64,000 nt of DNA from a virus (Duplodnaviria > Heunggongvirae > Uroviricota > Caudoviricetes), in the IMG/VR virus record IMGVR_UViG_651703075_000001, positions 1-64,000 of that record; one strand, 5' to 3'. The position numbers and the translations under genes were made by a program. The notes beneath the pieces are model-generated. The model saw nothing but the letters and a program-made list of their open reading frames with translations, did no database searches and had not been told where the DNA came from. This document shows, piece after piece, positions 46,297-63,772 of this stretch (within the stretch, counting starts at the first letter, position 1; each line of letters starts with the position of its first letter).

Positions 46297-46794
46297 ATGA
46301 ACACTGCTCAAACCATCGCAGACATCCTGATTCACCTCGCTGACCGTCTGTACACTCAGAAGGGTCGATGCCTCATCGACGGGCGCTGCAACTATGTAGA
46401 TGGCCAGGGAAATCACTGTGCTGTTGGGCACCTCCTAAGCTCCCAGTCGTGGGAGTTCGCTTCCAAGTGCCACGGCGGCGTGCCATCCCTGGAGAACGAC
46501 TGGGCGCGGCGTAAAGATGGAAGTGTGGAGACTCTCTATGACGAGAAGTTCTTCATCGCAGACATCGGTGTTCGCCGCCGTCTGTTGGACTCTTTGCAGT
46601 TCTACCATGATGAGCCGTCTATGTACTGGACAGTGGCTAAAAGCCCGTCATTCTCAAAGGTAAGCCTCCTGTTGTCTATGGTGGATTTCCTGAACACTCA
46701 AGGCCTGGACTTTGTTGAGCGCCCCCAATCTAGTGTTAAGGGTTTCTGGTCGGAAGCTAAAGGAATTCTTCGCAATCGGGGGTACCACGTATGA
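46297..46794 (+). CDS. hypothetical protein
   Basis: 165 aa, RBS tttggagga. Confidence 0.5.
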   Translation: MNTAQTIADILIHLADRLYTQKGRCLIDGRCNYVDGQGNHCAVGHLLSSQSWEFASKCHGGVPSLENDWARRKDGSVETLYDEKFFIADIGVRRRLLDSLQFYHDEPSMYWTVAKSPSFSKVSLLLSMVDFLNTQGLDFVERPQSSVKGFWSEAKGILRNRGYHV

Positions 46795-47270
46795 ACAAGG
46801 CTCTCCTTCTGAAAGACCAGTTGGCAGCAGCCCTACGATGTGAAGACCATACCCTGCAAGGTGTTGTCAGTTCTATCGTGTTCGGCCCTACCCAGGGGCT
46901 TGATCATAACGGTATTGCGATCCGTGGGCCGGGGCTTCTAAGTGATCACCGGGAACTGGTACAGCGAGCCGACAGGGTATGGATGAACATCGCCTACCGT
47001 CGAGAAGGTTTGCTAGTCAACATGAATGGCTTTACCCGGTCTGTGGTAGATGTGTTTATTCTCAAAGACAGGTATCACGGGCTGACAGGGTTGAGGTCCG
47101 TGGGTGTGGGTGAGGGATGGGCAAATGCCCTGGCCATCGACTGTGCCCTGCTGAAGAAGCAGTTCGAAGTTATTGTCGAAATCCCTTACCAGTACGAGGG
47201 GTGGGCAACCGACCTGGTACGGGCAGGTGAGATTCCTGAAGGTGTGACCATCATGTCCTCGGGGGTGTAG
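46791..47270 (+). CDS. hypothetical protein
   Basis: 159 aa, ATGA overlap. Confidence 0.5.
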   Translation: MNKALLLKDQLAAALRCEDHTLQGVVSSIVFGPTQGLDHNGIAIRGPGLLSDHRELVQRADRVWMNIAYRREGLLVNMNGFTRSVVDVFILKDRYHGLTGLRSVGVGEGWANALAIDCALLKKQFEVIVEIPYQYEGWATDLVRAGEIPEGVTIMSSGV

Positions 47271-47345
47271 ATATTTGAGGGGCTGGGGATATTTGCTCTA
47301 GATATTTGGGTGGCCCCCTATTTCGAGCTAGATATTTGAAGGGGC
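47268..47345 (+). repeat. direct repeats CTAGATATTTG(A/G)(A/G)GGG x3 (plus partial GATATTTG copy), ~30-nt period
   Basis: copies at ~47268, 47298, 47328 in intergenic DNA. Confidence 0.7.
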
Positions 47346-47440
47346 CTCCCAGCCTCGCTATCACATTTTAAGCCGGCCCCTGACTCACGGCCTAGGTTAG
47401 GGGAGAAATCGTCTCCTAGGCCCATCAGAGGAGCTTACAA

Positions 47441-47653
47441 GTGCATATCAACATCACGCTTACAGTCGGTCCTGAGATTCGTTGTAAGAAGTGCGACTCC
47501 CCCACCCCTGCCCGGGATATCGTAGAAGGCCTCTGCCCTTCCTGCCGGACACTCAAGGCCTGGGAGGCGCTTGGGCAGGCTGCTCAAGAGCTGTGGGCTT
47601 CCACTTTCAAGAGCGTCAAGATCGATTCCGTTCGGCTTGAGCAAGGTACCTGA
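47441..47653 (+). CDS. small Zn-ribbon protein (candidate DNA-binding regulator)
   Basis: 70 aa from GTG with RBS gaggag; CKKC...CPSC; flanked on both sides by direct-repeat arrays. Confidence 0.4.
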   Translation: MHINITLTVGPEIRCKKCDSPTPARDIVEGLCPSCRTLKAWEALGQAAQELWASTFKSVKIDSVRLEQGT

Positions 47654-47730
47654 CAGATTTTCACAGCCGGGCGTAAGGTACTCGACAGATTTTCACCGAG
47701 CGCCCAAGGTACTCGACAGATTTTTACAGA
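47644..47730 (+). repeat. direct repeats AAGGTACYYGACAGATTTT(T)YACMG x3, 31-nt period
   Basis: three 24-nt copies starting at ~47644, 47675, 47706. Confidence 0.75.
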
Positions 47731-47790
47731 GACAGGTATCAAAAGAACTGTCAAGTTTCCCTCCCCAGGCGGCCCGACCCCTCGGCCTCT

Positions 47791-47830
47791 TGTAGCACGT
47801 CAACTCCCCGCTGTAGCACGTCACTTCCCC
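47791..47830 (+). repeat. direct repeat TGTAGCACGTCA(A/C)(C/T)TCCCC x2
   Basis: two 19-nt copies 21 nt apart in the same non-coding region. Confidence 0.65.
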
Positions 47831-48098
47831 GGTAAGTAGCTCCCTATCTATCCCTCCCTCACCGAAACTACCTTTCACATGCAATCTCCATGCCAACCTT
47901 GAAAAGCGCGCAGGGGCGGTGTTTGTCTCCGGCGCCCGGCCCCTCCGGCCTGCTTTCCCGCATGCCTCCAGAATGCCAGGATGAGCCTGGAGTGTCAAGC
48001 CTTGTGCCAGGATTTTTCATCGCCGACCTGGCATGTTCCTTGCTACGCTTGCGCGTTCCTCTACCTGGCGTTGCCAGAGCAATTTCTTAAAAAGGGGG

Positions 48099-48126
48099 TT
48101 GACTTCTAACCGTGCCACCGTAGAAT
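48099..48126 (+). promoter_or_regulatory. early promoter TTGACT-N16-TAGAATGACC
   Basis: member of the TAGAATGGCC promoter family with conserved CAAGCAAGGCAAAC leader. Confidence 0.55.
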
Positions 48127-48165
48127 GACCCTCAAGCAAGGCAAACAACCTGTAGGAAGGTAACC

Positions 48166-48435
48166 ATGCAAAAAGCTCTCTGCAATCAACGTGACCTGTA
48201 CGCTGCCTATAACCGTGGTGAGTATGACCGCGTGGCCGTAGACCTGAATCGGTACTTCCCCATTGAGCGGGATAATCAGTGGGAAGATGGAGATGCGAAC
48301 CTGCGTCGTCGCACCTATCTGGTGAAGCACTCGAAGGGCGTGGCCAGGTGGCACACTCTCTATCGTAATGGTCAGGTTCACGGCGTCGGCGTTATCTTCG
48401 ACGTAAAGCCGGACGAACCCTTCCGAACTGCCTGA
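48166..48435 (+). CDS. hypothetical protein
   Basis: 89 aa, RBS ggaaggtaacc. Confidence 0.45.
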   Translation: MQKALCNQRDLYAAYNRGEYDRVAVDLNRYFPIERDNQWEDGDANLRRRTYLVKHSKGVARWHTLYRNGQVHGVGVIFDVKPDEPFRTA

Positions 48436-48446
48436 GGAGAGACAAG

Positions 48447-48680
48447 ATGCCTGTCAAAATAGGGGATATAGTAGCCATCCGGGGCGACCTTCGGAAAAAG
48501 CTCGACGGAACGTGTCAGTACCTGCCCGAACAGTTGGTAGGTGGTAAGTTCCTCAAGCATGCCGGCACGGGAGAAATATGGACTGGCCGAGTGAGTAAGA
48601 TACGAGGTGATATGGCCAAGGTGGGAGGTGCATGGCGCGGGATCGAATTCTATGTTCCGGTTGACGAAATAAACGCTTGA
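48447..48680 (+). CDS. hypothetical protein
   Basis: 77 aa, RBS tgaggagag. Confidence 0.45.
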   Translation: MPVKIGDIVAIRGDLRKKLDGTCQYLPEQLVGGKFLKHAGTGEIWTGRVSKIRGDMAKVGGAWRGIEFYVPVDEINA

Positions 48681-48706
48681 CAACCTGATGCACTAGCAGC
48701 ACAATA
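48677..48706 (+). promoter_or_regulatory. promoter TTGACA-N17-CACAAT
   Basis: -35 overlaps stop of upstream gene. Confidence 0.45.
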
Positions 48707-48738
48707 GCACCCACAAACCCCGACAGAGGTAACACACG

Positions 48739-48942
48739 ATGCAAATTCATTTCTCCTCCCGTACCGCAGCCCGTGCTTTCGTGAAGGGCTCTTCCGTTCC
48801 TCGCCAGGTAACCGATAACGGCGCGGAAGCTTCCCGCCGCTGGGGAGTCAAGCTGAATATCTCCCCCAGCGTCCGAGTGCTGGGCTGCGAATACCTCGCC
48901 TTTGGCAAGGCTGGCAATGCGGTGCCTGTATACGTCAAGTAA
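48739..48942 (+). CDS. hypothetical protein
   Basis: 67 aa. Confidence 0.4.
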   Translation: MQIHFSSRTAARAFVKGSSVPRQVTDNGAEASRRWGVKLNISPSVRVLGCEYLAFGKAGNAVPVYVK

Positions 48943-49017
48943 CAGCAGAGTGCTTTTAGGGCTGCCCCTGGACGCCGGGGGCAGCTTGCCTAAATCCACT
49001 CCGTAGGAGATAACACG

Positions 49018-49566
49018 ATGAACACTGTTCAAAAAACCGTCCTGGCTTTCGTTCTGACCACTCCCCTGTCCCTGGCTGCTGGCGCCATGATCGGCAAGGC
49101 CGTTGCCCTCCCTCCCGCACTGAAAGCTCAAGCTGTCAGCCTGGAGATGGCGCATGCCAAGGACCTGGCAGACAATTACGTTCCCAAAATGAACATCATC
49201 CATACCGCTACAGGTGCTATCGAGCTGGGCCAGGTGTACGGGGACCGCCTGGCGGGCGAGGTTAAAATGATCGTTAAGGGCAAAGTGCTGGCCAGTACGC
49301 ACATTAACGGTCGCAGCGTTCAGCAAGCCCTGGAGGAGGCAGCAGGTGGCACTATCGAAGATCGCGTGCTGAATAAGGATGTCACTTTCCGAATCACCAT
49401 GGATCGCCTGTACCAGTCCGAAAACTTCCCGCAGTTCACAGTAGTGATGCTGAACTCCTCTGTCTATGGCAAAGACGGTGACAGCCTAACCGCACTGGCT
49501 GCCCGCCTGGAAAAACAGCGCCTGGCCACGGTGAAGTTGTTCGAAGAAACCCGAATCCTGAAATAA
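49018..49566 (+). CDS. secreted/periplasmic protein
   Basis: 182 aa; N-terminal signal peptide KTVLAFVLTTPLSLAAGAMIG. Confidence 0.5.
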   Translation: MNTVQKTVLAFVLTTPLSLAAGAMIGKAVALPPALKAQAVSLEMAHAKDLADNYVPKMNIIHTATGAIELGQVYGDRLAGEVKMIVKGKVLASTHINGRSVQQALEEAAGGTIEDRVLNKDVTFRITMDRLYQSENFPQFTVVMLNSSVYGKDGDSLTALAARLEKQRLATVKLFEETRILK

Positions 49567-49570
49567 AGTG

Positions 49571-49598
49571 TTGACACGGCATCTCGTGTCTGTAGAAT
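49571..49598 (+). promoter_or_regulatory. early promoter TTGACA-N16-TAGAATAGGC
   Basis: family consensus. Confidence 0.55.
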
Positions 49599-49646
49599 AG
49601 GCATCACAGAGGGGGACGGTCCCCCTCCTCCTAAAAGGATATCAGC

Positions 49647-50045
49647 ATGACCACTCTCGACCCTAAAGAACTGGCACGTCAAGGCATGATCAAGGAAGCT
49701 GTTCAAGCTTTCAAAGATATGGGCGTAGATTCTCCCTGGAATGCCGAGAATGTGGCAACATTCCGAAACTACGATGTCACCCTGGGCGAGGTGGACTTGT
49801 CCGAAGAGGAGTTCGTGGAAGAGTTGGATTCCATCCACGAAGGGGTTAAGATAGCCAACATCTCTTTCTCTGCCGGCCAAGTGCTGCTAAAAATGGACCC
49901 CATAGCTTTCCGTTGCGCATGCGGGGAGTATGAGTCTCAATTGACCGAGGAGTTGGAGGAGGCGCTGCGAGTCGAAGACGACGATTGTATCGAATTCTTC
50001 ATCGACCCCATCGATTGGGAAGCGGTTGAAGAAGAGGAAGAATAA
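49647..50045 (+). CDS. highly acidic protein (candidate DNA mimic / anti-restriction-like)
   Basis: 132 aa, Asp/Glu-rich throughout, C-terminal EEEEE. Confidence 0.45.
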   Translation: MTTLDPKELARQGMIKEAVQAFKDMGVDSPWNAENVATFRNYDVTLGEVDLSEEEFVEELDSIHEGVKIANISFSAGQVLLKMDPIAFRCACGEYESQLTEELEEALRVEDDDCIEFFIDPIDWEAVEEEEE

Positions 50046-50048
50046 GGG

Positions 50049-50077
50049 TTGACAAGGGGCCAGGAAACTCATAAACT
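50049..50077 (+). promoter_or_regulatory. promoter TTGACA-N17-TAAACT
   Basis: consensus -35, 17-nt spacer. Confidence 0.45.
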
Positions 50078-50111
50078 GGCCCCAACACCAACGCACTGAG
50101 GGTAACACAAC

Positions 50112-50501
50112 ATGGTCAAGTTCGAAGAGATTGCACAACGTTTCAAGAATTCCCAACGCCGCTGGGACAAGCCAGGCGTCATGGCTGCCATGCAAGAGGC
50201 TGTCAATAACGCTCCCGTCAAGGTAGTGGTAGAGTCCACCAGCAAGGCGCTCAAGCCCGACACCCCTACCGTTCGGATCATCGTCCGGGAGTGGATCAAA
50301 GCTCGGCTCGGCGAGGAGTTCACAGTGTACGATATCATCCCCTACGTCCACCACCTGGCCACCCCTAGTGATGTGAACAACGCCCTCAAGCACTGGAAAC
50401 TGCAAGGCGTGCAAATCCCGACCATTCGCCAGCAGCAGAGGGAAGCGGGGAAAGCTGGCCGCCCGATCAATGTGTATCGTTGCGATGAGTTCGCAGCCTA
50501 A
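50112..50501 (+). CDS. hypothetical protein
   Basis: 129 aa, RBS gagggtaacac. Confidence 0.5.
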   Translation: MVKFEEIAQRFKNSQRRWDKPGVMAAMQEAVNNAPVKVVVESTSKALKPDTPTVRIIVREWIKARLGEEFTVYDIIPYVHHLATPSDVNNALKHWKLQGVQIPTIRQQQREAGKAGRPINVYRCDEFAA

Positions 50502-50525
50502 CCTTTCACTCTGAGGAGATATATC

Positions 50526-50639
50526 ATGCGTACTGACAAATCCGGCGCCCGTTCCGAACGTAAAGAAGCCATCAAGGCGAGCCGTGAGCTTCGCAACCTG
50601 CGAAAGAACAAGCGTAACCAGTGGGTCAGCAAGGACTAA
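50526..50639 (+). CDS. hypothetical small basic protein
   Basis: 37 aa, Arg/Lys-rich, RBS tgaggagat. Confidence 0.3.
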   Translation: MRTDKSGARSERKEAIKASRELRNLRKNKRNQWVSKD

Positions 50640-50663
50640 CCTGGCGCCTGGGGCGCCTTCCCT

Positions 50664-50690
50664 AAACCCTGGACATTCTCCAGGGTTTAC
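50664..50690 (+). terminator. hairpin (AAACCCTGGA-CATTC-TCCAGGGTTT)
   Basis: 10-bp perfect stem; weak T tract. Confidence 0.3.
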
Positions 50691-50739
50691 GAAAGATGCT
50701 CTAGATGTTACCCTGCAACCCCACATTTGAGGTTTAATC

Positions 50740-50874
50740 ATGGTCATTGAATGTCATCCTGGACCCGTAGAGTATTGCTTTTCCCTGGCGCTGTGCCTGG
50801 CTAAGGCGGGGGTTAAAGTGAAACTGTTCCGAACCGGTAAAGAGTGGGGAGTGATTCCGTGCCGAGACGTTTAA
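50740..50874 (+). CDS. hypothetical small protein
   Basis: 44 aa, RBS tgagg. Confidence 0.25.
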   Translation: MVIECHPGPVEYCFSLALCLAKAGVKVKLFRTGKEWGVIPCRDV

Positions 50875-51251
50875 GAGCCATTCCGACCTGGGTATCTGGG
50901 GGAGATGAAGAAGACACCCCGCGCAAGCCTGTCCTTTCCGTGATAGACCGGGCTTGCCCTATTCAGCGGAAGTTAAATGCCCTGGACCGAGATTGCGAGG
51001 AGTTACGGCGCAAGCAAGACACCCTAGAGCCTGCCACTTTTGACCAACTGGCCAATAGCCTGGAAGAGCGCCGGCAAGCCTTGTGGAAGGCCTTCGAATC
51101 CAAGTATGGCGCAGAGCCTGAGGGGGACAGCCACGACACTATCAAGGCTTTGGCCGATGCCAGTATCCAGCCTGCGCAACATGTGGACATCGGGGCACTG
51201 CTGTTGCTAGGACTGGTGGCGTTACTCTTCGCCGCGTGGCTGTTCAAATAA
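50859..51251 (+). CDS. tail-anchored membrane protein
   Basis: 130 aa from GTG; C-terminal TMD IGALLLLGLVALLFAAWLF. Confidence 0.4.
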   Translation: MPRRLRAIPTWVSGGDEEDTPRKPVLSVIDRACPIQRKLNALDRDCEELRRKQDTLEPATFDQLANSLEERRQALWKAFESKYGAEPEGDSHDTIKALADASIQPAQHVDIGALLLLGLVALLFAAWLFK

Positions 51252-55628: not shown

Positions 55629-55657
55629 CAAGCCCCCAATCCGGGGGCTTTCTTTTT
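55629..55657 (+). terminator. rho-independent terminator (AGCCCCCAATCCGGGGGCT + TTCTTTTTT)
   Basis: GC hairpin + long T tract. Confidence 0.75.
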
Positions 55658-55668
55658 TCCTAAAGGGC

Positions 55669-55696
55669 TTGACCTGGCCCCCTCTTCCTGTAGAAT
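55669..55696 (+). promoter_or_regulatory. early promoter TTGACC-N16-TAGAATGCGC
   Basis: family consensus. Confidence 0.55.
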
Positions 55697-55716
55697 GCGC
55701 ATCAAAGGGAAGCACA

Positions 55717-55956
55717 ATGCTCCCCAGGCATGAGACAAGACCCATGAGCCAGATCAAGATTCAAGAGTACATTATCGCAGAGGTCAAGGTTAACCATTGT
55801 GCCCACCTGCGCAAGGGCCAGACCATCCAAGCCCGCGATGCTAGTAGCAGTGAAAAGTGGATTGCATTCATGGTGGAACGTGGGTATAGTGCCTCTGAAG
55901 CCGCTATCCTGTTCAAAGATGCACATGATGTGGCAATGCTCGAACTGGCAGCCTAA
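55717..55956 (+). CDS. hypothetical protein
   Basis: 79 aa from ATG with RBS aaggga (alt ATG 55744). Confidence 0.4.
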   Translation: MLPRHETRPMSQIKIQEYIIAEVKVNHCAHLRKGQTIQARDASSSEKWIAFMVERGYSASEAAILFKDAHDVAMLELAA

Positions 55957-58696: not shown

Positions 58697-59976
58697 ATTC
58701 TCTGCCAGGTGGTCACAAGTTTCTATTCGGTCGCCATAATAATGACCCTGGGGAGGGTCCTACGGACCGTCACGATAACAGGGGAATTATGGCCATGTTA
58801 ACAGGGCCTATAGGCTTCGTAGAAGCCAGTTTAGCTTAGGCAGTACCCTAGTATAGGAAAGGCCTTGAAAAGGCCGTATGCGCGCCCCCAGGGGGCCTAT
58901 CGGGGAGGGAGTGGGCAAGTGCCCCCTCCCCGTGTCTAAGCCTTATCAACTGGACTCTTCGAGTCCATTCCAACAGGCTTCTACGAAGCCATATAATCAC
59001 CAGTCATAATACCAATCATGCGCAGAGCATCCGGGTAGGATGATCAAGCCATTGGTCTCTCCTCTCTGTCAAGAATTCTGTAACAATCACTAGGTCACGT
59101 CGTGACCCATTGTGTAACAGTCGGCAGACTGTCATTCGGGCAGGGGCATTTGCCCCCTTCCTGCCCTCCTAAACTAGCTGGCTTCGACGAAGCCTTCCCA
59201 TGCCACCAACCCAATTATGTAACAGCCTGGCCATGGTCATGGCCCATTGTGTAACGGCATTGCATGCCAGGATCACCAGACAGCCCCAGCCAGTCCAATT
59301 GTGTAACCATTCCCCATCCCAGCAGCAGAATATCCCCAGCCAGGAAGCCCATGACCCTCCCCATTGCATCCTAGGTGCTCAGCCCCTGGAATACGTCGAT
59401 TGTGTAACCCATGACCACCCATGCCCTAGTAGGCCTCTTCGAGGCGAGCTAATGCCGGCGTCTCTCTACCCTCACGGGAAGAGTTCCCCCTTTATTATGG
59501 CGACCGAATAGAGAATGCCCGGTTCATGCGGCCTGTAGGCCATTACAATGGCCAGCCCGGGTAAGGATTGCATTACACAATAGGCTTACCCTCACCCCTG
59601 AATTGACAGGCCTCGAAGAGGCTAGCCAGGCTCAGACAGACAGCTTGAGTTACACAATTCCCCCTCACATATTGCCCCACTCCCCATGCCACACCCCTGA
59701 CATTCAACCCCACGCCCCAGCCTCAGCAGATACATTTGCTTCGACGAAGCCTGGATATTTCCAGATCATGACGGCGCCTCATGGCCACCCTCGGGTCTTG
59801 TTAAATACCCCGGCTGCCTATCTGGAATTTCAGAATCATGATGCCCCTCCCCAGTCACACCCCCAGGCCCGTTCCCCAGGATTCCCCCAGATATATTTCC
59901 CAGGCTGGTGCCCAGGAAGGGTGCCCCCATGTACCCCTGAAATTTTGGCGGGGGTGGGTTTCTGAATTGAAAAATG
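58697..59976. repeat. 1.3 kb non-coding hub with dispersed ATTGTGTAAC repeats (both orientations) and GGCTTCG-N-CGAAGCC / GGTCACG-N-CGTGACC palindromes
   Basis: no ORF with RBS on either strand; at least 5 forward and 2 reverse copies of (A)ATTGTGTAAC; several 7-bp-arm palindromes. Confidence 0.6.
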
Positions 59977-60006
59977 TTGACAGGCCCCTGCCGGGGCTTC
60001 ACAATG
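59977..60006 (+). promoter_or_regulatory. promoter TTGACA-N17-CACAATGGCC driving the paralog array
   Basis: family-type extended -10 (AATGGCC); track ORF 59974 ATG lies inside it. Confidence 0.55.
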
Positions 60007-62742: not shown

Positions 62743-63092
62743 ACACCCATGAACGACTGCTACGTGCTGTGCAAGCTCTGCCTCGGGACCTGATCCCGTC
62801 CCTGCATGACCTGGTGGCCTGGTACCACTCAGGCTGCCCGGATGGGTCCCCGTTTAACACCTCCCGTAGGATATGCGGGAACGTATACCGACACCTCATC
62901 TGCAAAAGAGGGGTGAGTCCTGAAAGGGCCTGTGATCTGGAGGACTGCCTGTACTCTCTTTACGAGGCCTTCCTGGATGTTGACCTCAGCGACGAGGGGT
63001 TCCCATTCGACGACGAAGCGACAATCTACAAGAACCACTACGACAACCCGCTCCGCATGGCCTTCCTCAAGTGTCTGTCGGAGGTGCTGTGA
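62739..63092 (+). CDS. paralog-family protein 6
   Basis: 117 aa; WYHSGCP, RICGN, FPFDDE, YDNPLRMAFL. Confidence 0.5.
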   Translation: MNTHERLLRAVQALPRDLIPSLHDLVAWYHSGCPDGSPFNTSRRICGNVYRHLICKRGVSPERACDLEDCLYSLYEAFLDVDLSDEGFPFDDEATIYKNHYDNPLRMAFLKCLSEVL

Positions 63093-63772
63093 TGCGACTC
63101 AAGAGGATTGAACATATAAACTTCGAGAAGTTCTCCTGGCAGACTCAGGTTGCCTTGAAGGAGCTGGCTCGTTGGGTGTTTAAGGACATGGGTCCGTGGA
63201 CTGAGGGTAAGACCCATCCAGCCTTCTACCGGGGGTATCGTGTCTGCACCAACCTCCGCTTGTGGGAGTTGCATTACGGGTGGGGGGATAAGCATGGTCG
63301 GACGATCCAGACAGAGTTATCCGAAGAGTTCGTTCGTGTTGGCCTGGACAGGGACCTCCCCTTCGAAGGCCGTCTCTCGGATGACGGGATATTCGTTCTG
63401 GACGAAGATGCTGTCGAAGAACTCTACGACAACCCCCTTCGTCAGCGGTTCCTCCGACTAGCCCTGGAGAAGCTTTCAGCGCCCAAGGTGGAGGTCAGTG
63501 AGATGGTGGAAGACGCGCTCACAGCCGTGGCCCGCTGGGCTATTTTGAAGGAGTCCTTCTCCTGCTTCGAACCTCGGTTCCGAATCTGCTGGAACGTGGA
63601 GAACTACCTTACCTGGTTAGGGAAGAGCGAGGTAGAGGTCGCCAAAGCTTATCAGGAGTTGTCCAAAGTCTTCGGCGTCATGTACCCCTTTGAAAGTGAG
63701 GAAGGGTTTGACACAGAGGAAGAGATTTGGAAGAATGATCGCCGACTCTCTTTCCTGGCTCAATTTATCTGA
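63092..63772 (+). CDS. paralog-family protein 7 (tandem double domain)
   Basis: 226 aa from ATG overlapping upstream stop; domain 1 RVCTN...LPFEGR...LYDNPLRQRFL; domain 2 RICWN...YPFESEEG...IWKNDRRLSFL. Confidence 0.5.
   Translation: MRLKRIEHINFEKFSWQTQVALKELARWVFKDMGPWTEGKTHPAFYRGYRVCTNLRLWELHYGWGDKHGRTIQTELSEEFVRVGLDRDLPFEGRLSDDGIFVLDEDAVEELYDNPLRQRFLRLALEKLSAPKVEVSEMVEDALTAVARWAILKESFSCFEPRFRICWNVENYLTWLGKSEVEVAKAYQELSKVFGVMYPFESEEGFDTEEEIWKNDRRLSFLAQFI

What the first reader, a model, noticed from the sequence alone, without database searches (positions are those of the whole stretch)
47268..48165. Iteron-like direct-repeat arrays flanking a small Zn-ribbon gene
Two different families of direct repeats lie within ~900 bp of mostly non-coding DNA. 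The first is 3x CTAGATATTTGRRGGG at ~30-nt spacing (47268-47345). The second is 3x 24-nt AAGGTACYYGACAGATTTTYACMG at 31-nt spacing (47644-47730), followed by 2x TGTAGCACGTCAMYTCCCC (47791-47830). A 7-bp inverted repeat GCCTAGG...CCTAGGC at ~47390-47423 lies ahead of a 70-aa CxxC...CxxC protein gene (47441-47653). That gene sits between the two arrays, which may place both arrays in position to be bound by its product. Periodic arrays at roughly three helical turns are typical of iteron origins or cooperative operator sites.
Basis: seen in the sequence. Interest (0 to 1): 0.65.

Follow-up and report, generated by a model that had tools for sequence, protein, structure and literature searches.

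The report
Conserved silent control region in phage KPP10
The repeat arrays are real and belong to a gene-free control region conserved across a whole group of Pseudomonas phages used in therapy; in a close relative the upstream early transcripts end at the arrays, and nothing points to a replication origin.

Summary
The window is Pseudomonas phage KPP10 (Nankokuvirus), bases 1-64000. All the repeats exist at the stated places and occur nowhere else in the 88-kb genome.

They belong to a non-coding module found in at least five phage groups (Nankokuvirus, Pakpunavirus, Otagovirus, Flaumdravirus and unclassified relatives). Its order is: array A, a small variable ORF, array B (consensus CTCGACAGATTTTTACAG), a pair of TGTAGCACGTCA sites, a sigma54-type -24/-12 element on the opposite strand, then a strong sigma70 early promoter.

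In PAK_P3, published ONT-cappable-seq places two non-intrinsic transcript 3' ends at arrays A and B. It finds no start site until the sigma70 promoter about 425 nt further on.

The module lies about 11-13 kb upstream of the terminal repeat. It has no AT-rich unwinding element and no DnaA, IHF or Rep features. The genome's only AT-rich spot is at 81.6 kb. ORF77 is a real zinc-ribbon gene but is not conserved together with the arrays.

Best reading (confidence 0.45): clustered DNA sites for unidentified protein(s) that form a transcription boundary and control region inside the early gene block. This region may be one anchor of the Hi-C loop reported for PAK_P3. An iteron origin is unlikely.

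The parts
47268..47344 (+). Array A. Three copies of TAGATATTTG(N6) at 47268, 47299 and 47329, plus half-copies at 47286-47295 and 47316-47325. Copy 1 contains the ORF76 stop codon.
   Evidence: It is 96.2% identical to PAK_P3. Analogous arrays (TTAYTTTG, CTTACTTTTG) occupy the same slot in other genera.
47341..47362 (+). KPP10 position equivalent to PAK_P3 transcript 3' end T021 (PAK_P3 50279, about KPP10 47362). It lies just after a weak 5-bp G/C stem, GGGGC..GCCTC. It is a partial stop.
   Evidence: Putzeys et al., supplementary tables; not classed as intrinsic. Mapped through alignment A1. The scan found no terminator-like site.
47389..47422 (+). Inverted repeat GGCCTAGG..CCTAGGCC with an inner GGAGA/TCTCC pair. 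It would form an RNA hairpin in the 5' leader of ORF77.
   Evidence: The single PAK_P3 change in an arm (A to G at 47394) keeps a G-U pair.
47441..47653 (+). ORF77, a 70-aa zinc-ribbon protein (CxxC-x13-CxxC), phrog_11927, function unknown. It is probably a lineage-specific insert between the arrays.
   Evidence: AlphaFold2 on the single sequence gave a low-confidence model, pLDDT 64.
47643..47731 (+). Array B. Three 26-nt copies at 47643, 47675 and 47706; family consensus CTCGACAGATTTTTACAG.
   Evidence: It is 98.9% identical to PAK_P3, and there is no substitution at all between 47591 and 47719. It is present on the same strand in 14 lineages.
47708..47708 (+). KPP10 position equivalent to PAK_P3 transcript 3' end T022 (PAK_P3 50625), at the junction of array B copies 2 and 3. 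Transcripts from the upstream promoters end here.
   Evidence: mapping through. No hairpin plus T-run is present. The RNA fold of the array is not unusual, z = -1.7.
47791..47831 (+). Motif C. Two direct copies of TGTAGCACGTCA, 21 nt apart.
   Evidence: The same 12-mer occurs as an inverted pair in phiPsa374, VCM, Pyxpy01 and KIL5, and as direct copies in UNO-G1W1. NoPa and XD2 carry TGTTCCAC twice at the same 21-nt spacing.
47836..47849 (+). GTAGCTCCCTATCT block, shared with Pakpunavirus and the NoPa, XD2 and metagenomic relatives, where it is repeated.
47880..47895 (-). Sigma54-type -24/-12 element TGGCATGGAGATTGCA on the minus strand, facing array B.
   Evidence: It lies 262-294 nt from the next gene start in 9 lineages. 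The GG and GC blocks never change while the 5-nt spacer varies freely. No start site was mapped here in PAK_P3.
48029..48044 (+). Second sigma54-type match, TGGCATGTTCCTTGCT. It is found only in the Nankokuvirus clade and overlaps the right arm of the inverted repeat TGCCAGG (48005-48011) / CCTGGCA (48027-48033).
   Evidence: The PAK_P3 changes fall only in the spacer.
48099..48133 (+). Strong sigma70 early promoter TTGACT-16-TAGAAT with an A/T-rich upstream stretch. Equivalent to PAK_P3 P035, start site 51049, about KPP10 48133.
   Evidence: PAK_P3 differs mainly in the spacer between the two hexamers.
48166..48435 (+). ORF79 (DUF7449), the first gene of the transcription unit downstream of the module.

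Best explanation
The two arrays are parts of one conserved, non-coding, cis-acting control region of about 900 bp, interrupted in KPP10 by the small gene ORF77. The region sits inside the early gene block, about 11-13 kb upstream of the genome's terminal repeat.

Most likely the repeats act on the DNA as clustered sites for one or more sequence-specific proteins. These could be phage or host proteins and are not identified. The bound region marks where the first early transcripts stop, first partially after array A and then inside array B. It also keeps about 425 bp ahead of the strong sigma70 promoter free of incoming transcription, and it carries further regulatory sites: the TGTAGCACGTCA pair and an opposite-strand sigma54-type element.

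Shown: the repeats, their conservation, the transcript ends and the lack of start sites in PAK_P3, and the position relative to the terminal repeat.

Inferred: that protein binding rather than RNA is the working level, that binding causes the stops, and that ORF77 is a lineage-specific insert rather than the binder.
For: 1. The repeats are unique to this locus in the 88-kb genome.
2. The same ordered module occurs in Nankokuvirus, Pakpunavirus, Otagovirus, Flaumdravirus and unclassified Pseudomonas phages: gene-free gaps of 390-718 nt in the 11 GenBank loci tabulated (the module was also seen in Pakpunavirus EM and PAK_P4 and in two metagenomic contigs), and 143 GenBank records matched a 711-nt query from the Pakpunavirus EM module (array B to promoter).
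3. In PAK_P3, ONT-cappable-seq places 3' ends T021 and T022 at arrays A and B. Neither is classed as intrinsic. The start-site list, which is ordered by position, jumps from 48439 to 51049.
4. KPP10 has no hairpin plus T-run here, and the arrays show no unusual RNA folding.
5. Motif C is direct in some phages and inverted in others. That fits DNA half-sites and does not fit a conserved RNA hairpin.
6. In NoPa, XD2, EM, PAK_P4 and a metagenomic contig an intrinsic terminator precedes array B or array A. In those phages the arrays are largely untranscribed yet still conserved.
7. The arrays are more conserved than the neighbouring coding DNA.
8. The antisense RNA as16 of PAK_P3 ends at 51063, the right edge of the gap, so transcription from both sides stops at the region's borders.
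Against: - No binding protein is identified.
- The 3' ends lie after or inside the arrays, not 15-20 nt upstream as a simple roadblock would give.
- Array B always has the same orientation as transcription, which would also suit an RNA-level or transcription-coupled signal.
- The transcript data come from PAK_P3, not KPP10, and the method misses RNAs shorter than about 80 nt.
- In PAK_P4 a small leftward RNA is made inside the homologous region, so the region is not silent everywhere.
Confidence: 0.45

Rival explanations
1. Architectural anchor or DNA-entry boundary. The protein-loaded, untranscribed region marks the inner border of the terminal early domain. [quoted passage not shown] It might pause or organise DNA entry, like the injection stop signal of phage T5.
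For: - The Hi-C preprint reports a 14-kb structure in the early region whose anchors are two sequences without genes or transcription.
- Across the annotated part of that view that was examined (47.1-76 kb), the two largest gene-free stretches by far are 50571-51080 (this module) and 62818-63738 (the terminal-repeat region); the next is 269 nt at 73.2 kb. They span 13.2 kb from outer edge to outer edge.
[quoted passage not shown] It lies 12.7 kb and about 10 kb from the record end in PaP1 and phage 254.
- The T5 injection stop signal is likewise a conserved, untranslated, repeat-dense region bounding a terminal block of early genes, and it is even split by an HNH gene in some relatives. Phage 254 and one metagenomic contig show the same kind of split here.
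Against: - The preprint gives no coordinates, so the match to the anchors is an inference.
- The module shares no repeat with the terminal-repeat region.
- It lies outside the 756-bp terminal repeat, and KPP10 has no DnaA boxes.
- Early genes are transcribed toward the end of the genome, and which end enters first is unknown.
- A strongly transcribed domain flanked by silent DNA could give the same Hi-C picture passively.
Confidence: 0.2
2. RNA-level elements. The repeats work in the transcript, as factor-dependent termination or 3'-end protection signals for the early mRNAs. Alternatively, read from the opposite strand, they are repeated motifs of a regulatory RNA driven by the sigma54-type promoter.
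For: - The 3' ends map at the arrays.
- The furthest read 3' ends are scattered (50630, 50787, 50897), as expected for termination followed by trimming.
- Array B has one fixed orientation in all 14 lineages.
- A leftward small RNA exists in the PAK_P4 module.
Against: - The arrays show no significant structure, z between -0.6 and +1.2, and there is no Rfam match.
- In several lineages the arrays lie downstream of an intrinsic terminator.
- Motif C changes orientation between phages.
- No leftward start site is seen in PAK_P3.
Confidence: 0.15
3. Iteron-type replication origin. An initiator binds the arrays and opens nearby DNA.
For: - There are direct repeats of 16-26 nt at about 3 helical turns in KPP10 and Boevelstad.
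- The region is gene-free and conserved.
- Boevelstad and phage 254 carry one or two DnaA-box-like 9-mers further downstream in the gap.
Against: - The region has no AT-rich unwinding element. The only AT-rich spot in the genome is 81611-81760, at the switch to divergent transcription, and cumulative GC skew peaks at 70.3 kb.
- KPP10 and PAK_P3 have no DnaA or IHF boxes here, and there is no Rep-like neighbour.
- The spacing is not conserved or phased.
- For phage 254, Ori-Finder placed the origin in an AT-rich region 14 kb away from the module.
[quoted passage not shown] That reads more naturally as an origin near the record ends than at 51 kb, but this is my reading of their text.
Confidence: 0.1
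4. Operator arrays for the ORF77 zinc-ribbon protein. The protein binds cooperatively to both flanking arrays to control its own expression or that of neighbouring genes.
For: - ORF77 is a real gene under purifying selection and sits between the arrays.
- Otagovirus has a different small protein in the same slot that also begins with CxxC-x12-CxxC/H.
- T021 upstream of ORF77 is only a partial stop, which could be a point of control.
Against: - The arrays persist in lineages where the slot holds unrelated proteins: a membrane protein, an HNH endonuclease and others.
- ORF77 and the Otagovirus protein show no significant similarity.
- ORF77 matches no DNA-binding family.
- The arrays lie about 370-830 nt from the only mapped promoter, and no start site is near them.
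Confidence: 0.1

Closest known systems
Injection stop signal (iss) region of phage T5 and its relatives
   Same: - Both are conserved, untranslated regions dense with several families of direct and inverted repeats.
- Both are better conserved than the neighbouring genes.
- Both bound a terminal block of the earliest genes, and both are split by an HNH gene in some relatives.
   Different: - The T5 region lies within the 10-kb terminal repeat and carries 8 ordered DnaA boxes.
- The KPP10 module lies about 11 kb outside a 756-bp repeat and has no DnaA box.
- Two-step DNA entry has not been reported for these phages.
Iteron origins of plasmids and phages (lambda ori, P1 oriR, P4 ori/crr)
   Same: Three or more direct repeats of about 20 nt at a regular spacing in a non-coding stretch.
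   Different: - There is no adjacent AT-rich unwinding element.
- There is no initiator gene and no host DnaA or IHF sites.
- Spacing varies from 18 to 53 nt among relatives.
Protein roadblock or insulator sites that stop RNA polymerase (for example, DNA-bound repressors causing roadblock termination)
   Same: Non-intrinsic transcript ends coincide with clustered sequence-specific repeats at the edge of an untranscribed stretch.
   Different: The binder is unknown, and the 3' ends lie within or after the arrays rather than upstream of them.
Sigma54 (-24/-12) promoters in Pseudomonas phages, such as the one reported in phage YuA
   Same: The TGGCAY-N5-TTGCW element has invariant GG and GC blocks and a freely varying spacer across 9 lineages. 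Use of sigma54 by a Pseudomonas phage has a precedent.
   Different: No start site was mapped here in PAK_P3. No activator protein or activator binding site has been identified. The element is absent from the Otagovirus modules.

Membership tests
Iteron-type replication origin | Three or more direct repeats of about 17-22 bp at a regular, helically phased spacing | tested here: inconclusive
   Met in KPP10, PAK_P3 and Boevelstad, with spacings of 30-33 nt. Across 14 lineages the spacing is 18-53 nt and not phased.
Iteron-type replication origin | An adjacent AT-rich DNA unwinding element | tested here: not met
   The gap has GC 0.555, and its lowest 150-nt window is 0.51. The only AT-rich spot in the genome (GC 0.26) is at 81611-81760.
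Iteron-type replication origin | A cognate initiator (Rep) gene next to or overlapping the iterons | tested here: not met
   ORF76, ORF77 and ORF79 match no Rep or DNA-binding family. The ORF between the arrays is not conserved.
Iteron-type replication origin | Host factor sites (DnaA boxes, IHF) | tested here: not met
   The KPP10 and PAK_P3 modules have none. TTWTNCACA is absent from the whole KPP10 genome.
Iteron-type replication origin | Replication starts there | not testable with these tools
   This needs marker-frequency data or a plasmid origin assay.
Intrinsic (Rho-independent) terminator | A G+C-rich hairpin followed by a run of T at the mapped 3' end | tested here: not met
   The scan found 0 terminator-like sites in 46700-48500. 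T021 and T022 are not classed as intrinsic by ARNold.
Sigma54-dependent promoter | GG-N10-GC elements matching TGGCAC-N5-TTGCW | tested here: met
   There are two exact matches in the 88-kb genome, and both lie in the 512-bp gap. 0.26 matches were expected by chance in the 64-kb window searched.
Sigma54-dependent promoter | The element is conserved in position among relatives | tested here: met
   The minus-strand element lies 262-294 nt from the next gene start in 9 lineages, and its spacer varies freely.
Sigma54-dependent promoter | A transcription start about 12 nt downstream, and dependence on an activator | tested here: not met
   PAK_P3 has no start site on either strand between 48439 and 51049. 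No Pfam domain was found in the large proteins ORF120 and gp127; gp127 is noted in its GenBank record as ClpV1-like. Only standard infection conditions were sampled.
T5-like injection stop signal | A conserved untranslated multi-repeat region bounding a terminal block of early genes | tested here: met
   distances to the terminal repeat.
T5-like injection stop signal | Ordered pairs of DnaA boxes, and a location inside the long terminal repeat | tested here: not met
T5-like injection stop signal | DNA entry pauses at the site | not testable with these tools
   This needs shearing or time-resolved entry experiments.
Promoter-proximal operator array | Repeats overlap or adjoin a promoter that they control | tested here: not met
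   Array B ends about 370 nt, and array A about 750 nt, upstream of the -35 hexamer of the only mapped promoter.

The most novel reading that the evidence does not exclude
The module is a dedicated architectural element of this phage family. It would be a transcription-free stretch loaded with host proteins. In different lineages the candidates are RNA polymerase carrying sigma54, Fur, or proteins that recognise sites resembling DnaA boxes or ParB half-sites. It would pair with the terminal-repeat region to fold off the terminal early domain within minutes of infection. That would make it the sequence basis of the unexplained Hi-C hairpin in PAK_P3, and perhaps a checkpoint in DNA entry.
Probability: 0.2. 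Interest if true: 0.8.

Novelty: new variant of a known kind. Interest (0 to 1): 0.6.

Why it matters
Nankokuvirus and Pakpunavirus phages are leading candidates for therapy against Pseudomonas aeruginosa, and PAK_P3 is their best-studied model.

No paper I found describes these arrays. Three data sets touch them without linking them to a sequence:
- promoter repeats (Henry 2015)
- two unclassified transcript ends (Putzeys 2024)
- two gene-free Hi-C anchors (Bignaud 2025)

Naming a conserved set of motifs gives concrete targets for several experiments:
- ChIP or pull-down to find the binding protein
- engineered deletions of the arrays
- a direct test of how the early programme, and possibly genome folding or DNA entry, is set up

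The module also marks a slot where unrelated small genes have been swapped in repeatedly.

Tried and rejected
- Genome terminus. Rejected. The predicted terminal repeat is at 59047-59802 and has different repeats.
- tRNA or a known RNA family. None found.
- RNA structure of the arrays. Not significant.
- Hidden coding genes in the gap (ORF78 and the ORFs annotated in the RP phages). Non-synonymous changes equal or exceed synonymous ones, so they are rejected.
- Phage-encoded sigma54 activator. No Pfam hit in the large proteins ORF120 and gp127.
- ORF77 structure. The single-sequence AlphaFold2 model had pLDDT 64, too poor for a fold search. There is no significant PDB sequence match.
- First IMG/VR scan with a loose two-copy pattern. 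It returned almost only chance matches.
- Second IMG/VR scan with a 15-mer. It added two metagenomic relatives.
- Gp160, proposed by the Hi-C authors as a virion DNA-binding protein. It is reported absent from PAK_P1-like phages, which do carry array B, so it cannot be the universal binder.
- Coordinates of the Hi-C anchors. They are not given in the text.
Full report
**Identity and context**

The window is identical to Pseudomonas phage KPP10 (AB472900.2, Nankokuvirus), bases 1-64000, with the same coordinates. The finding spans the DNA between ORF76 (ends 47270) and ORF79 (starts 48166). The only credible gene inside it is ORF77 (47441-47653).

**The observation**

All the repeats are present.

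- TAGATATTTG occurs exactly three times, at 47268, 47299 and 47329. With one mismatch allowed there is no other copy in the window. Two half-copies at 47286 and 47316 give a real sub-period of about 15-16 nt.
- The 26-nt array B has copies at 47643, 47675 and 47706. No shuffle produced a match. A position-weight matrix built from 14 lineages gives only these three strong hits (scores 24.6-29.2) in the whole 88,322-bp genome, plus four weak minus-strand hits scoring 9.9-15.0.
- TGTAGCACGTCA occurs twice, 21 nt apart, and nowhere else.
- The 8-bp inverted repeat at 47389-47422 is real.
- ORF77 has a GAGGAG ribosome-binding site and CxxC-x13-CxxC. It differs from its PAK_P3 homologue at 15 synonymous and 3 non-synonymous codons, so it is a real gene.
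- ORF78 and the other ORFs that some records annotate in the gap show the opposite pattern (1-5 synonymous against 6-9 non-synonymous changes). They are probably not genes.

**What it is not**

- Not the genome terminus. Henry et al. (PMC4309531, Table S1) placed the high-coverage region of about 750 bp in PAK_P3 at 62771-63516, with boundaries AGCCATT and CTTGTT. The KPP10 equivalent is 59047-59802, which is 11.4 kb downstream of array B. That region has different repeats of its own.
- No tRNA and no Rfam family.
- No hairpin plus T-run terminator, and only one sigma70-like promoter, TTGACT-16-TAGAAT at 48099-48126.

**Experimental data from the close relative PAK_P3** (92.5% identical by blastn over 47200-48200; 96% mean column identity in the MAFFT alignment of 47230-48170)

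The supplementary tables of Putzeys et al. (bioRxiv 10.1101/2023.10.13.562163) list two plus-strand transcription termination sites in this locus.

- T021 at 50279 maps to about KPP10 47362, some 18 nt after the last copy of array A.
- T022 at 50625 maps to KPP10 47708, the junction of array B copies 2 and 3.
- Neither site is classed as intrinsic.
- Transcription units from promoters P031, P033 and P034 end at one or the other. The furthest read ends are at 50630, 50787 and 50897.
- The start-site list, which is ordered by position and covers both strands, jumps from P034 (48439) to P035 (51049). P035 is the sigma70 promoter ahead of gp81.

About 425 nt is therefore gene-free and lacks any mapped start. 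On the other strand, the annotated antisense RNA as16 ends at 51063, the right edge of the same stretch. Chevallereau et al. (PMC4933390) define the early region as gp74-gp112, running up to the untranscribed terminus at gp113. The module therefore lies inside the early block, between its first transcription unit (gp74-gp80) and the rest.

**Comparative evidence**

A 54-nt blastn hit to array B in phage Boevelstad, which infects P. poae, led to a series of searches. Thirteen further loci were then inspected. All share one ordered, gene-free module:

1. Array A: 3-7 copies of a short T-rich unit (GATATTTG, CTTACTTTTG or GTTATTTG). In several phages it begins with, or follows, an intrinsic terminator.
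2. A small ORF.
3. Array B: 2-5 copies, consensus CTCGACAGATTTTTACAG.
4. Motif C.
5. Further conserved blocks.
6. A strong sigma70 promoter with an A/T-rich upstream stretch.

The module occurs in Nankokuvirus, Pakpunavirus (EM, PAK_P1, PAK_P2, PAK_P4, PaP1), Otagovirus (phiPsa374, UNO-G1W1, VCM), Flaumdravirus (KIL5), unclassified phages (Boevelstad, vB_PseuGesM_254, Pyxpy01, NoPa, XD2) and two metagenomic contigs of about 98 kb. A 711-nt query taken from the Pakpunavirus EM module (array B to promoter) matched 143 GenBank records.

Four points bear on mechanism.

- The ORF in the slot is not conserved. It is a zinc ribbon in Nankokuvirus. In Otagovirus it is a different small protein with an N-terminal CxxC-x12-CxxC/H and no significant similarity to ORF77. 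It is a membrane protein in NoPa and XD2, an HNH endonuclease in phage 254 and one contig, and unrelated elsewhere. ORF77 therefore looks like one of several genes inserted into a pre-existing non-coding region, not its cognate binder.
- Array B spacing ranges from 18 to 53 nt with no helical phasing. Its orientation is always the same.
- Motif C is a direct pair in KPP10 and UNO-G1W1, but an inverted pair with a 9-10-nt spacer in phiPsa374, VCM, Pyxpy01 and KIL5. NoPa and XD2 have TGTTCCAC twice at the same 21-nt spacing as KPP10. A change of orientation fits protein half-sites on DNA and does not fit a conserved RNA hairpin.
- In NoPa, XD2, EM, PAK_P4 and one contig a canonical terminator precedes array B or array A. 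In those phages the arrays are largely untranscribed yet retained.

Within the genus, the arrays are better conserved than their surroundings. Identity between KPP10 and PAK_P3 is 96.2% for array A, 98.9% for array B and 97.6% for motif C. It is 91.1% for ORF77 and 91-94% for the spacers. No substitution occurs between 47591 and 47719.

**An unexpected feature**

The pattern TGGCAY-N5-TTGCW, the sigma54 -24/-12 consensus (from my own knowledge), has only two exact matches in the whole KPP10 genome on both strands. Both lie in the 512-bp gap, at 47880-47895 (minus strand) and 48029-48044 (plus strand) (0.26 expected by chance in the 64-kb window searched).

The minus-strand element recurs 262-294 nt from the next gene start in nine lineages. 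Its GG and GC blocks never change, and the 5-nt spacer differs each time. Five lineages have a second copy about 170 nt further away. KPP10 and PAK_P3 differ here only in the spacer and at position 6 of the -24 block, which the consensus itself leaves as C or T.

The Otagovirus, Pyxpy01 and Flaumdravirus modules lack this element. They carry one to three Fur-box-like palindromes instead (one each in KIL5 and Pyxpy01). Use of sigma54 has been reported for Pseudomonas phage YuA. No start site was mapped at this place in PAK_P3. If the element is functional, it is silent under the conditions tested, or it serves as a binding site only. In PAK_P4 a 201-nt leftward RNA (as16) and a near-consensus leftward sigma70 promoter lie inside the homologous region. 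KPP10 lacks that segment.

**Origin of replication?**

The evidence is against it.

- The region has average base composition (GC 0.555; lowest 150-nt window 0.51).
- The only AT-rich spot in the genome (GC 0.26) is at 81611-81760, where transcription diverges. Cumulative GC skew peaks at 70.3 kb, where transcription converges.
- The KPP10 and PAK_P3 modules have no DnaA or IHF boxes and no Rep-like neighbour.
- For phage 254, PhageTerm gave a 628-bp terminal repeat and Ori-Finder placed the origin in an AT-rich region at 70.5-70.9 kb. The module in that phage sits at 84.3-85.4 kb.
[quoted passage not shown] I read that as an origin near the record ends, but I could not see the figure.

**Link to genome folding (inference)**

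Bignaud et al. (bioRxiv 10.64898/2025.12.15.694284) report that 3 min after infection a 14-kb part of the PAK_P3 early region forms a hairpin or loop. [quoted passage not shown] No coordinates are given.

Across the annotated part of their 45-75 kb view that I examined (47.1-76 kb), the two largest gene-free stretches by far are 50571-51080 (this module) and 62818-63738 (the terminal-repeat region); the next is 269 nt at 73.2 kb. From outer edge to outer edge they span 13.2 kb. The module keeps a similar distance from the terminal repeat in other phages:

| Phage | Distance from module to terminal repeat or record end |
|---|---|
| KPP10 | 11.4 kb |
| PAK_P3 | 12.2 kb |
| PAK_P1 | 12.3 kb |
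| PAK_P2 | 11.2 kb |
| PAK_P4 | 11.5 kb |
| PaP1 | 12.7 kb (record end) |
| Phage 254 | about 10 kb (record end) |

The closest described analogue is the injection stop signal of phage T5. It is a conserved, untranslated region dense with repeats that bounds a terminal block of early genes, and in some relatives it is split by an HNH gene. KPP10 fails two of its defining features, the DnaA boxes and the location inside the terminal repeat.

**Verdict**

It is wrong in its specifics, the origin and ORF77 as the binder.

The best-supported reading is a conserved, largely untranscribed boundary and control region of the early gene block, at 0.45 confidence. The architectural or entry-anchor reading (0.2) is the most interesting possibility still open.

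No paper I searched describes these arrays. The finding is a previously unnamed family-wide element whose binding protein and exact role still need experiments.

Noticed in passing
window 59047-59802 (flanks 58900-59990): This is the KPP10 equivalent of the predicted direct terminal repeat, with boundaries AGCCATT and CTTGTT. It is gene-free and packed with its own repeats. ATTGTGTAAC occurs about 6 times in direct orientation, with 2-3 inverted copies (TTACACAAT). The palindrome GGCTTCGACGAAGCC occurs 3 times. GC skew dips to -0.20 here. A TTGACA promoter-like site follows at about 59976.
   Followed up: partly
window 47880-47895 (minus strand) and 48029-48044 (plus strand): These are the only two exact sigma54-type -24/-12 matches (TGGCAY-N5-TTGCW) in the 88-kb genome, and both lie in the gene-free gap. 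The minus-strand one is conserved in position in nine phage lineages, with a freely varying spacer. No start site is mapped there in PAK_P3.
   Followed up: partly
window 58903-58930 and KPP10 81651-81678 (L134 17651-17678): The same 28-nt hairpin-forming sequence, GGGAGGGAGTGGGCAAGTGCCCCCTCCC, occurs twice. One copy is just upstream of the terminal repeat. The other is in the middle of the genome's only AT-rich stretch (81611-81760, GC 0.26), at the switch to divergent transcription. That stretch is a better candidate origin than the finding.
   Followed up: partly
L127 2384-2396 and 2459-2471; L128 1782-1794; L129 1655-1667; L131 1566-1578: The Otagovirus and Flaumdravirus versions of the module carry palindromes that resemble Fur boxes (GAGAATCATTCTC, GATAATCATTCGC). 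They occupy the place where other lineages have the sigma54-type elements. PAK_P4 is reported to alter iron-related host genes, but no link was tested.
   Followed up: no
L198 1712-1912 (PAK_P4 55650-55850, minus strand): In Pakpunavirus PAK_P4 the homologous gene-free region holds an RNA-seq-annotated leftward RNA (as16). It also has a near-consensus leftward sigma70 promoter (TTGACA-16-TAGAAT) and a palindrome formed by two face-to-face sigma54-type elements (TGGCACAGTCTTTGCAATTGCAATTAGCGTGCCA). KPP10 lacks this segment.
   Followed up: partly
L126 1897-2442; the L185 segment shown: An HNH/AP2-type endonuclease gene sits between arrays A and B in phage vB_PseuGesM_254 and in one metagenomic contig. 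In phage 254, repeats resembling array A lie inside its coding sequence. T5 relatives show the same kind of HNH insertion splitting the repeat regions of the injection stop signal.
   Followed up: no
L132 1533 and 1554; L133 1476 and 1497: NoPa and XD2 carry TGTTCCAC twice, 21 nt apart, at the position of KPP10 motif C. As far as I recall, this 8-mer equals the left half of the Pseudomonas parS site (TGTTCCACGTGGAACA). It is a lead toward ParB or SMC involvement and was not tested.
   Followed up: no
L005 3281-3289 and 3333-3341; L126 2781-2789: Boevelstad and phage 254 have one or two 9-mers matching the DnaA-box pattern (TTATACACA, TTATTCACA) in the conserved block upstream of the early promoter. 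KPP10 has no such match anywhere in its genome.
   Followed up: partly
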